The notes: generated by a model from the sequence alone, not told the origin. DNA of 4,543 nucleotides from a virus (IMGVR_UViG_2695420746_000006); one strand, 5' to 3'. Counted from the stretch's first letter, positions 1,008 through 1,962 are shown. Numbers and translations: made by a program.

Positions 1008-1040
1008 AATTACCTCTCGCTTTTCTGCAATAAAAAAGGC
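823..1040. repeat. Direct repeat copy A (218 bp, identical to 1730..1947) covering the lom 5' coding end, RBS and leader
   Basis: See copy B; the two copies are identical at an offset of 907 nt. Confidence 0.85.
1013..1018 (-). promoter_or_regulatory. Shine-Dalgarno sequence of lom
   Basis: Minus-strand GAGAGG, 5 nt upstream of the ATG at 1007..1005. Confidence 0.5.
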
Positions 1041-1055
1041 ACCATTTCTGGTGCC
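1031..1055 (-). terminator. Putative intrinsic terminator or RNA hairpin between the chimeric ORF and lom
   Basis: On the minus strand this reads GGCACC-agaaat-GGTGCC followed by UUUUUUA. Plus-strand stem halves are 1038..1043 and 1050..1055. It occupies the same position as the hairpin at 1938..1962 but with a different stem sequence. Confidence 0.4.
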
Positions 1056-1074
1056 CGTATCTGGGTTATAAAAT

Positions 1075-1914
1075 TCAGCTAATCGTGATGCCTGCAGTGG
1101 CTTTCTTCATCACCACAACCAGCAAATCGCTGATACTTGCTGTGGGATACCAGCCATTTACCAGCCATGCCGATACAGAAAACTCCAGCGTCATGTGACC
1201 GTGACCGGCAGGCATATCAATAACACCCGTATATATCAGCGTATTATCCAGGGTCGTTCGGTTATAAATTTCAGCACCGTTTTTCTTCACTATCAGGCGG
1301 CATGACGAATAAATATTGTTATTCTTCCGCTCATGTTTAGCACCGCGAAACGCCACCGCGGGAATAACAATTTGCCGATCAAACGGCTGATCGTCATAAA
1401 CCCTGACGGTAATGGTCCCTGATGGCCACCTCTCCGGTGCCCGGGAGTCCCGTGGGAAAGGTTTGCCCACTGTTTTAACGAGATCGCCTTCAATCTGGTT
1501 CGCGGACAATTTTCCCAGAACCCGACAGTTCTTATTAATCGTGACGTTGTTGAGCGTCCCGGAGTTCGCGTTCACGTTACCGCTGATATCGGCATTTTTC
1601 GCCGTCAGCCGTCCGCCAACGCTGAACCAGCGGTTACGAACGGAATCTTCATGCCAGCGGGTATCGCTGTAACGGGTCAGCTGGCGATTCTTGTCTCCTG
1701 CATAGCTGAATGACGTCACCAGCCCCAGTGTGTCCGTAAACTCATAACGGTATTTCACGTTAATCCCGTTCAGATCATCACTGCCGGGAACGTTCGTCGA
1801 GGCATGAAGATACCCCGCGCTCAGCGTGGACTGATGTTCAGACGCCCATGCAGGCGCACCGGATACGACCAGACAAATGGCTGCGGACAAAATTGCTGCA
1901 CAAACTTTACGCAT
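1075..1914 (-). CDS. Chimeric ORF: Lom signal peptide plus N-terminal 99 residues fused in frame to a divergent J-type C-terminal receptor-binding domain (lom'::J-RBD); may be an expressed fusion or a recombination relic
   Basis: 279-codon ORF with the same RBS and start as lom. Residues 1-99 match the downstream Lom apart from a short variable stretch (aa ~66-80). From residue ~101 the protein is [30 protein letters not shown]...[27 protein letters not shown]...[15 protein letters not shown]...[14 protein letters not shown], homologous to the J C-terminus ([15 protein letters not shown]...DDH.FDRQI...VIDMP.G.G...TKKA..GI). The junction is at about nt 1614..1618. Confidence 0.6.
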
Positions 1915-1947
1915 AATTACCTCTCGCTTTTCTGCAATAAAAAAGGC
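1730..1947. repeat. Direct repeat copy B (218 bp, identical to 823..1040) covering the lom 5' coding end, RBS and upstream leader
   Basis: Base-by-base comparison at an offset of 907 nt shows no mismatch from 'gtgtccgtaaactcataacgg...' to '...ttttctgcaataaaaaaggc'. Similarity continues at lower identity for a further ~110 bp into lom (to 1618) and into the intergenic hairpin. Confidence 0.85.
1920..1925 (-). promoter_or_regulatory. Shine-Dalgarno sequence of the lom'::J-RBD chimeric ORF
   Basis: Minus-strand GAGAGG followed by taatt and then ATG at 1914..1912. Identical to the RBS of the intact lom copy. Confidence 0.5.
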
Positions 1948-1962
1948 GTCATTCCTGACGCC
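1938..1962 (-). terminator. Putative intrinsic terminator or RNA hairpin between the J stop and the lom' start
   Basis: On the minus strand this reads GGCGTCA-ggaa-TGACGCC followed by UUUUUU(A)UU. Plus-strand stem halves are 1945..1951 and 1956..1962, with the A-run at 1939..1944. It sits 23 nt downstream of the J stop. Confidence 0.4.

What the first reader, a model, noticed from the sequence alone, without database searches (positions are those of the whole stretch)
1031..1962. Paralogous J-lom intergenic hairpins keep the stem-loop through different stem sequences
The two intergenic copies are homologous (shared flanks 'ttataaa...' and 'aaaaaaggc'), but the hairpin stems differ: GGCGTCA/TGACGCC at 1945..1962 versus GGCACC/GGTGCC at 1038..1055. 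Base-pairing is preserved in both, and each is followed by a U-run on the coding strand. Conservation of structure rather than sequence points to a functional RNA element, whether a terminator isolating late tail transcription from lom or a stabilising hairpin. The hairpin lies only ~25 nt upstream of the lom start, so the lom promoter must either read through it or the element acts as an attenuator or processing site.
Basis: seen in the sequence. Interest (0 to 1): 0.4.

Follow-up and report, generated by a model that had tools for sequence, protein, structure and literature searches.

The report
Intrinsic terminator hairpins before lom
The two hairpins are ordinary transcription-terminator stem-loops in the spacer between the prophage tail-tip gene J and the outer-membrane gene lom; related prophages keep the stem paired through matched base changes, so it is a tidy but unsurprising case.

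Summary
All genes in the window lie on the minus strand. Each J-type-end/lom-start spacer carries an 8-bp GC-rich stem with a tetraloop, followed by U6AUU on the coding strand. The hairpins span 1037-1056 and 1944-1963, with dG of -14.2 and -17.6 kcal/mol and z-scores of -3.1 and -4.4. The two copies differ at two adjacent stem pairs, both by double compensatory transitions.

Across 131 related J-lom spacers, 124 stems are perfectly paired, in three allele classes (GC, AC, GT). On 28 distinct sequences, 98.2% of cells pair and four pairs change on both sides; 0 of 500 shuffles reach this. Phage lambda and a Citrobacter prophage have terminator-like hairpins of different sequence at the same position. 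Phage Ayreon's GenBank record annotates the identical hairpin as a terminator.

Wobble pairs form only in the coding-strand RNA. The U-tract stays at 5-7 U in all 28 spacers, while the 5' flank varies. Selection therefore acts on the RNA, in one orientation.

The best reading is a Rho-independent terminator and 3'-end hairpin. It would stop unmodified RNA polymerase and be read through by Q-antiterminated late transcription, because a tail-fibre gene lies downstream. Only 21 nt separate the U-tract from the lom ATG, so no promoter fits there.

The two copies exist because of a rearrangement that made a lom::J chimeric ORF. Novelty is low.

The parts
1985..4522 (-). 3' part of the tail-tip host-specificity gene J, allele a (stop codon 1985-1987). 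It contains an in-frame 423-nt tandem duplication.
   Evidence: ORF list. Annotated as gpJ in E. coli genomes and phages. Repeat D1.
1944..1963 (-). Copy A hairpin: GGGCGUCA-GGAA-UGACGCCU. The 8-bp core is extendable by 3 A-U pairs (1964-1966 with 1941-1943).
   Evidence: Fold -17.6 kcal/mol, z -4.43. Covariation. Allele counts.
1936..1943 (-). Copy A U-tract. With U1944 (the closing G.U pair, counted in the hairpin 1944-1963) the coding-strand RNA reads UUUUUUAUU.
   Evidence: Sequence. The T-run is 6 T in 25 of 28 related spacers and 5-7 T in all.
1920..1925 (-). Shine-Dalgarno GAGAGG of the chimeric lom::J ORF (ATG at 1914-1912).
   Evidence: Sequence. Invariant in the alignment.
1075..1914 (-). 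Chimeric ORF of 279 aa: Lom signal peptide and residues 1-98 fused in frame to about 180 aa of a J C-terminal domain (allele b). The junction is near 1618-1620.
   Evidence: ORF translation. Alignment with Lom and other Lom-J fusions. Blastn against L060.
1037..1056 (-). Copy B hairpin: GGGCACCA-GAAA-UGGUGCCU (8 bp, closing G.U pair).
   Evidence: Terminator-like site on the minus strand. Fold -14.2 kcal/mol, z -3.06. Identical to the hairpin annotated 'terminator' in phage Ayreon.
1029..1036 (-). Copy B U-tract. With U1037 (the closing G.U pair, counted in the hairpin 1037-1056) the coding-strand RNA reads UUUUUUAUU.
   Evidence: Sequence. Scan tail TTTTTATTGC.
1013..1018 (-). Shine-Dalgarno GAGAGG of lom (ATG at 1007-1005). 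The U-tract ends 21 nt before the ATG.
   Evidence: Sequence. ORF list.
408..1007 (-). Full-length lom (199 aa), an Ail/Lom family outer-membrane beta-barrel protein.
   Evidence: ORF list. Annotation of matching genomes.
360..381 (-). Terminator-like hairpin after lom: AGCCCGCC-GGUUCA-GGCGGGCU followed by UUUUUGUGGG. It is homologous to the lambda lom/orf-401 spacer hairpin.
   Evidence: Scan. Fold. Lambda counterpart at L002 1313-1334.
17..349 (-). Tail-fibre (stf) N-terminal domain gene, on the same strand downstream of all three hairpins.
   Evidence: ORF list. Annotated 'prophage tail fiber N-terminal domain-containing protein'.

Best explanation
Each hairpin is a Rho-independent (intrinsic) transcription terminator in the spacer that follows a J-type stop codon and precedes a lom-type start.

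How it works: as RNA polymerase transcribes the minus strand, the 8-bp GC-rich stem with its tetraloop forms in the nascent RNA. It sits immediately ahead of a U6AUU tract, and an unmodified elongation complex releases there. The same hairpin at the resulting 3' end would protect J mRNA from 3' exonucleases.

During lytic growth, the Q-modified late polymerase is expected to read through it and through the similar hairpin after lom. That lets the tail-fibre gene beyond lom be expressed. In the prophage state, without Q, the hairpins bracket lom and stop stray transcription from the tail genes.

No promoter fits between the hairpin and lom. Transcription of lom must therefore start upstream of, or overlapping, the hairpin and pass through it.

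What is shown: the anatomy, strand-specific conservation, compensatory variation, and positional conservation in lambda and Citrobacter.

What is inferred: actual termination, read-through by Q-modified polymerase, and the insulating role.
For: - Anatomy: stems of 8 pairs with 5 G-C pairs, 4-nt loops and a T6ATT tail on the coding strand. Fold energies are -14.2 and -17.6 kcal/mol, with z -3.1 and -4.4 and 0 of 200 shuffles as stable.
- Placement: about 20 nt after the stop codon. The three best terminator-like sites of the window fall in its three intergenic spacers.
- Covariation on 28 distinct spacers: 98.2% of cells paired, 4 of 8 pairs changed on both sides, covariation score 0.218 against 0.118 +/- 0.013 in shuffles (0 of 500 reach it). 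Slid registers pair only 34-62% and show no double changes.
- Population sample: 124 of 131 loci have perfect stems, in allele classes GGGCGCCA (61), GGGCACCA (27) and GGGCGUCA (36). Only 2-3 loci have mismatched stems.
- Orientation: the non-Watson-Crick pairs are G.U in the coding-strand RNA, which would be A.C on the other strand. These are the closing pair, the L053/L104 variant, two pairs in Citrobacter and one in lambda. The T-run is 5-7 T in all 28 spacers (6 T in 25), while the 5' flank varies.
- Same position, different sequence: lambda CGUCCG-GGAA-CGGGCG followed by UUUUAUUAU, and Citrobacter GAGCGCUC-AUUC-GGGCGCUU followed by U7.
- The GenBank record of phage Ayreon annotates the identical hairpin as a terminator. 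It annotates others after gpI and after lom, inside the late operon.
- A tail-fibre gene lies downstream on the same strand.
Against: - There is no transcript evidence. No 3'-end map or termination assay for this spacer was found in the searchable literature, and lambda's records annotate nothing there.
- Lambda's own hairpin is weak. The 61-nt region folds at -11.9 kcal/mol with z -0.5, and the hairpin alone is about -8 kcal/mol. Strong termination is therefore not universal at this site.
- A terminator that the late polymerase ignores, in front of a gene reported to be expressed in lysogens, has no obvious selective reason. The lom promoter is not known (PMC2147009).
- The sampled loci are related and recombining, so the number of independent compensatory events is small: about two within E. 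coli, plus Citrobacter and lambda.
- Palindromes can also restore complementarity through template-switch mutation at the DNA level. The loop-inverted allele (GAAA to TTTC, L027) looks like such an event.
Confidence: 0.8

Rival explanations
1. The hairpin mainly acts as an mRNA stability or processing element. It would be a 3' protective stem-loop for J mRNA, or after cleavage a 5' stem-loop for lom mRNA, and polymerase release there would be minor.
For: Stable hairpin at the 3' end of a long ORF. Late polymerase is expected to ignore terminators, so a post-transcriptional role would give the element something to do in lytic growth. Lambda's version is a weak terminator by energy.
Against: A stabiliser does not need a U-tract, yet the T-run is 5-7 T in all 28 spacers and adjoins the stem. 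The stem is far too short for RNase III. The two roles are not exclusive, since terminator hairpins also protect 3' ends.
Confidence: 0.1
2. The hairpin is a regulated attenuator or leader element gating lom. Lom would be made only when the terminator is overridden by Q, another antiterminator, or a condition-dependent alternative fold.
For: There is no room for a promoter between the U-tract and the lom ATG (21 nt), and no convincing sigma-70 site lies upstream on the coding strand. The lom promoter is uncharacterised (PMC2147009).
Against: No competing structure appears. Minimum-free-energy folds of 130-nt upstream segments from the E. coli-type loci with this spacer keep the terminator stem intact. 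The only conserved complement to the 5' arm is 3 nt (CCC/GGG). There is no leader peptide and no Rfam family (best E about 0.7-1, far below gathering scores). In another Stx phage, lom expression was reported as independent of induction (PMC3342100). That phage (Phi24B), as I recall it, is short-tailed and lacks this J-lom context; this was not checked here.
Confidence: 0.07
3. The palindrome is kept at the DNA level. It would be a conserved linker for homologous recombination between J receptor-binding modules and lom, with arm complementarity restored by template-switch (quasi-palindrome) mutation rather than by selection on RNA.
For: The spacer is much more conserved than the J C-termini on its left: about 72% identity between the two J ends against 94% for the spacer plus lom 5' repeat. 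Each J C-terminal type carries several hairpin alleles, so recombination occurs close by. One allele has an inverted loop (L027), and one (L117) carries arms of two different alleles.
Against: A DNA palindrome has no strand polarity. Here the wobble pairs are G.U only on the coding-strand RNA, and only the 3' U-tract is conserved, not a symmetric A-tract. Lambda and Citrobacter keep hairpin plus U-tract with unrelated stems. A linker role may coexist with the terminator but does not explain the anatomy.
Confidence: 0.03

Closest known systems
Rho-independent (intrinsic) terminators of E. coli and its phages
   Same: GC-rich 8-bp stem, 4-nt loop, U-tract adjoining the stem, location about 20 nt after a stop codon on the transcribed strand, and stem maintained by compensatory changes.
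   Different: It lies inside an operon normally transcribed by Q-antiterminated polymerase, directly in front of the next gene's ribosome-binding site. Its effect is expected only on unmodified polymerase. Termination was not measured.
The lambda J-lom spacer hairpin (NC_001416 about 18920-18935; L002 621-636)
   Same: Same position between J and lom, a GGAA tetraloop as in copy A, a U-rich tail, and a following GAGAGG ribosome-binding site.
   Different: Unrelated stem sequence, only 6 pairs including one G.U, a U4AUUAU tail, and much lower stability. It is not annotated in the lambda records. From memory, and unverified here, late-operon terminators distal to J (t'J series, Luk and Szybalski 1983) were described. 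I could not confirm whether one is this site.
The terminator annotated in Escherichia phage Ayreon (MF807953, 18454-18494)
   Same: The hairpin and tail are identical to copy B (GGGCACCAGAAATGGTGCC TTTTTTATTGC), in the same J-lom spacer.
   Different: That annotation appears to be a prediction, as no experiment is cited in the record. Ayreon has a single J-lom junction, not two.
Moron transcription units of lambdoid phages (own promoter and own terminator; Juhala et al. 2000, summarised in PMC3594210)
   Same: Lom is an accessory outer-membrane gene within the tail region, followed by a strong terminator-like hairpin (360-381). Lambda lom is reported as expressed from the prophage.
   Different: The upstream element is a terminator, not a promoter. 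No sigma-70 promoter was found between it and lom.

Membership tests
Rho-independent (intrinsic) terminator | GC-rich stem of about 5-14 pairs with a short (3-8 nt) loop | tested here: met
   8 pairs with 5 G-C pairs and a 4-nt loop in both copies.
Rho-independent (intrinsic) terminator | U-rich tract directly after the stem on the transcribed strand | tested here: met
   UUUUUUAUU begins at the last stem position in both copies. The T-run is 5-7 T in all 28 related spacers.
Rho-independent (intrinsic) terminator | Hairpin more stable than expected for its composition | tested here: met
   -14.2 and -17.6 kcal/mol, z -3.06 and -4.43, 0 of 200 shuffles as stable.
Rho-independent (intrinsic) terminator | Located after the stop codon of a gene, in that gene's orientation | tested here: met
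   About 20 nt after the stop codons at 1985-1987 and 1075-1077. All genes are on the minus strand.
Rho-independent (intrinsic) terminator | Stem pairing under selection (compensatory changes among relatives) | tested here: met
   98.2% of cells paired, 4 pairs with changes on both sides, 0 of 500 shuffles. 124 of 131 loci have perfect stems in three allele classes.
Rho-independent (intrinsic) terminator | RNA 3' ends or polymerase release at the U-tract | not testable with these tools
   No transcript data are available. The EHEC Term-seq paper holds no supplementary tables here.
Moron (independent promoter-gene-terminator unit) | Own promoter immediately upstream of the accessory gene | tested here: not met
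   21 nt separate the U-tract from the ATG. There is no minus-strand sigma-70 site at 9 of 12 matches anywhere in the window, and only weak, non-conserved 8-9 of 12 matches inside J.
Moron (independent promoter-gene-terminator unit) | Factor-independent terminator downstream of the accessory gene | tested here: met
   Hairpin at 381..360 with 8 pairs, 7 of them G-C, then UUUUUGUGGG. It is conserved with lambda.
Transcription attenuator or riboswitch leader | Alternative (antiterminator) structure or leader peptide competing with the terminator | tested here: not met
   Folds of the spacers and of 130-nt upstream segments of the E. coli-type loci with this spacer keep the terminator stem, and no competitor appears. 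No ORF lies in the spacer.
Described RNA family (Rfam 15) | Match at or above a family's gathering score | tested here: not met
   The best hits over the spacer are STnc40 (23.3 bits against 45) and STnc420 (21.9 bits against 70), with E about 0.8-1.

The most novel reading that the evidence does not exclude
In this prophage lineage lom (and the lom::J chimera) may have no promoter of its own. The strong terminator 21 nt upstream of the ATG would then act as a gate. Lom would be made only from polymerases that pass the hairpin, either Q-modified late polymerase or a regulated fraction of read-through from inside J. That would make Lom chiefly a late, lytic-cycle protein here, or a conditionally attenuated one, rather than a constitutive lysogenic-conversion factor.
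Probability: 0.12. Interest if true: 0.4.

Novelty: already known. Interest (0 to 1): 0.12.

Why it matters
It matters little beyond annotation.

- It gives a clean natural example of compensatory evolution in a terminator stem. Three fully paired alleles segregate among E. coli prophages.
- It marks the J-lom spacer as a conserved boundary next to the highly variable receptor-binding end of J.
- One modest open point it sharpens is how lom is transcribed in lysogens, since a canonical terminator sits 21 nt before its start codon and no promoter fits between them. Public Term-seq and dRNA-seq data, or a simple reporter series, could answer this.

Tried and rejected
- Rfam search at a permissive E-value found only sub-threshold, terminator-like hits.
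- The lambda GenBank and RefSeq records annotate nothing in the J-lom spacer.
- Literature searches for a mapped J-lom terminator, a lom promoter, or Term-seq coverage found nothing specific. The Liu 2013 and Casjens-Hendrix 2015 papers are not held.
- Prophage sRNA families were checked as possible identities. AgvB/EcOnc lie at the moron insertion site downstream of PR', and PasA/C/D lie in the Q/lysis region. None is at J-lom.
- The first viral-contig pattern was set to lambda's spacing. It returned only lambda copies and unrelated sites.
- L099, where lom follows a truncated terminase gene without the hairpin, is a rearranged remnant. It says nothing about which module owns the hairpin.
- Promoter reading of the conserved TTTATAACCC block (TATAAC as a -10 element) was rejected. 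No acceptable -35 element exists at a 16-18 nt spacing, and the block is not conserved in lambda or Citrobacter.
- Bidirectional terminator was rejected as a general property. Copy A's + strand has a T-rich tail (CTTTATTGGG), but copy B's has none (CGTATCTGG), and the closing pair is A.C on that strand.

Full report
**Layout of the window.** All long ORFs lie on the minus strand. In the direction of transcription they are:
- the 3' 2.5 kb of the tail-tip host-specificity gene J (4522..1985);
- a 70-nt spacer (copy A, 1984..1915);
- a 279-aa ORF (1914..1075);
- a 67-nt spacer (copy B, 1074..1008);
- full-length lom (1007..408, 199 aa);
- a 58-nt spacer;
- a tail-fibre N-terminal-domain gene (349..17).

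Matching E. coli genomes and phages annotate these as gpJ, Ail/Lom family outer-membrane protein and prophage tail fibre N-terminal domain protein.

The 279-aa ORF is a chimera. Residues 1-98 are Lom (signal peptide and first strands). The rest is a J C-terminal domain of a different allele from the upstream J. That is why a J-type end followed by a lom-type start occurs twice.

**Checking the observation.** On the coding strand:
- Copy B is GGGCACCA-GAAA-UGGUGCCU, then UUUUUAUUGC.
- Copy A is GGGCGUCA-GGAA-UGACGCCU, then the same tail, with three extra A-U pairs possible at the base.

The 41-nt folds give -14.2 kcal/mol (z -3.06) and -17.6 kcal/mol (z -4.43). No shuffle out of 200 folds as well.

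The spacers are identical from the U-tract to the lom start and share TTTATAACCC upstream. In the stem they differ at two adjacent pairs, A-U/C-G versus G-C/U-A, so all four changes are compensatory transitions. There is also one loop difference.

The generic terminator scan is not very selective overall (7 sites found against 4.2 +/- 2.1 in shuffles). Its two best sites (8 pairs, on the coding strand) lie in copy B and in the spacer after lom. The third best is the copy A hairpin (7 pairs), which the scan lists only on the + strand, although its coding-strand tail is the same T6ATT.

**Related sequences.** A scan of viral contigs for the lom ribosome-binding site and start returned 120 stretches. 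One genome-collection scan with Lom added Shigella, E. ruysiae, E. albertii and Citrobacter loci.

Of 131 spacers of this type, 124 have a perfectly paired stem, in three allele classes:
- GGGCGCCA/UGGCGCCU, 61 loci;
- GGGCACCA/UGGUGCCU, 27 loci;
- GGGCGUCA/UGACGCCU, 36 loci.

Two more loci have a U.G wobble. Only two or three are mismatched, and one of those (L117) carries the 5' arm of one allele and the 3' arm of another.

On 28 distinct spacers, 98.2% of cells pair and 4 of 8 pairs show changes on both sides. The covariation score is 0.218 against 0.118 +/- 0.013 in column shuffles (0 of 500 reach it). Registers slid by 1-3 columns pair only 34-62% and show no double changes.

The sampled loci are related and recombining, so the number of independent events is small: about two within E. 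coli, plus two more pairs in Citrobacter.

**Same position, other sequences.**
- Lambda has CGUCCG-GGAA-CGGGCG followed by UUUUAUUAU between J and lom. It is much weaker.
- A Citrobacter prophage has GAGCGCUC-AUUC-GGGCGCUU followed by U7.
- The GenBank record of phage Ayreon annotates a hairpin identical to copy B as a terminator. It annotates others after gpI and after lom, all inside the late operon.

**RNA or DNA, and which strand.**
- Every non-Watson-Crick pair is G.U in the coding-strand RNA and would be A.C on the other strand. These are the closing pair in 25 of 28 variants, L053/L104, two pairs in Citrobacter and one in lambda.
- The run of T after the stem is 6 T in 25 of 28 spacers and 5-7 T in all. 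The 5' flank varies, and copy B has no T-rich tail on the + strand.

Selection therefore acts on the minus-strand transcript. A symmetric DNA palindrome would not give this pattern. One allele with an inverted loop (GAAA to TTTC, L027) suggests that template-switch events occur here too.

**How it most likely works.** The anatomy is that of a Rho-independent terminator, which releases unmodified RNA polymerase and leaves a protected 3' end on J mRNA.

Lambdoid late genes are transcribed by Q-modified polymerase that ignores terminators (established knowledge; the antitermination scheme is summarised in PMC7547250). A tail-fibre gene lies downstream of lom on the same strand. I therefore infer that late transcription reads through the hairpins before and after lom. 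They would matter mainly for unmodified polymerase, that is, in the prophage state, where they bracket lom.

The U-tract ends 21 nt before the lom ATG. No sigma-70-like site lies there, and none is convincing on the coding strand within the window. The literature describes the lom promoter as little known (PMC2147009).

No antiterminator structure, leader peptide or Rfam family supports an attenuator.

**Origin of the two copies.**
- Window 1-1618 is 98% identical to part of IMG/VR locus L060. There, J, spacer and lom are followed by a second J C-terminal fragment, spacer and lom.
- The window looks like such a tandem arrangement with a deletion joining lom codon 98 to the J fragment, at a junction with little or no homology.
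- The exact chimera is not on record, and its junction was not seen in the listed best hits among complete E. coli genomes.
- Three other singleton Lom-J fusions with different junctions exist (P0001, P0003, P0005). These are sporadic products of rearranging prophages, not a conserved gene family.

**Verdict.** The element is an ordinary intrinsic terminator that already appears as an annotated feature in a public phage record. The only mildly open question is how lom is transcribed past it. Interest is low.

Noticed in passing
window 1075-1914 (minus strand), junction near 1618-1620: In-frame chimeric ORF of 279 aa: Lom signal peptide and residues 1-98 fused to about 180 aa of a J C-terminal (receptor-binding) domain. 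The exact protein is not on record, and its junction was not seen in the listed best hits among complete E. coli genomes. Three other singleton Lom-J fusions with different junctions exist (P0001 Shigella sonnei, P0003 and P0005 E. coli).
   Followed up: partly
window 2642-2941 and 3065-3364: In-frame 423-nt (141-aa) tandem duplication inside J, with copies 93% identical. It is absent from L060, and it appears absent from the best E. coli genome matches, which span only about 3.16 kb for the 4.5-kb query.
   Followed up: partly
window 360-381 (minus strand); L002 1313-1334: The terminator-like hairpin after lom is conserved with lambda's lom/orf-401 spacer, including an identical UUUUUGUGGG tail. 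This holds although the two Lom proteins are only about 45% identical. Loop and inner stem differ (GGUUCA vs GGAACC region).
   Followed up: partly
L060 763-6405: An IMG/VR prophage contig carries a tandem arrangement: J, spacer, lom, a second J C-terminal fragment (241-aa ORF), spacer, lom. The first lom's terminator is cut in its loop at the junction, which contains an ambiguous base (N), so an assembly problem cannot be excluded.
   Followed up: partly
window 1-349; L060 6427-7211: The tail-fibre gene after lom is only 110 aa and ends with the same odd tail (…PEVMKCQRQ) as in L060. In L060 an ORF that looks like a transposase, possibly of an IS element (family not checked here), follows. 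The stf gene is probably truncated and the prophage defective.
   Followed up: no
L027 3953-4027 (J-lom spacer): A hairpin allele with the loop inverted (GGGCGCCA-TTTC-TGGCGCC instead of -GAAA-). This is the signature expected of a strand-switch or inversion across the palindrome.
   Followed up: no
L117 10789-10863; L074 1121-1195: Rare mismatched stems. L117 combines the 5' arm of the AC allele with the 3' arm of the GT allele, an apparent crossover within the loop. L074 has a single C.A mismatch.
   Followed up: partly
window 1985-2543 vs 1075-1615: Steep identity gradient at the module boundary. The two J C-terminal segments are about 72-76% identical, while the spacer plus lom 5' end are 93-94% identical. 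Each J C-terminal type in the wider sample carries several hairpin alleles, so the spacer behaves as a recombination boundary next to the variable receptor-binding domain.
   Followed up: partly
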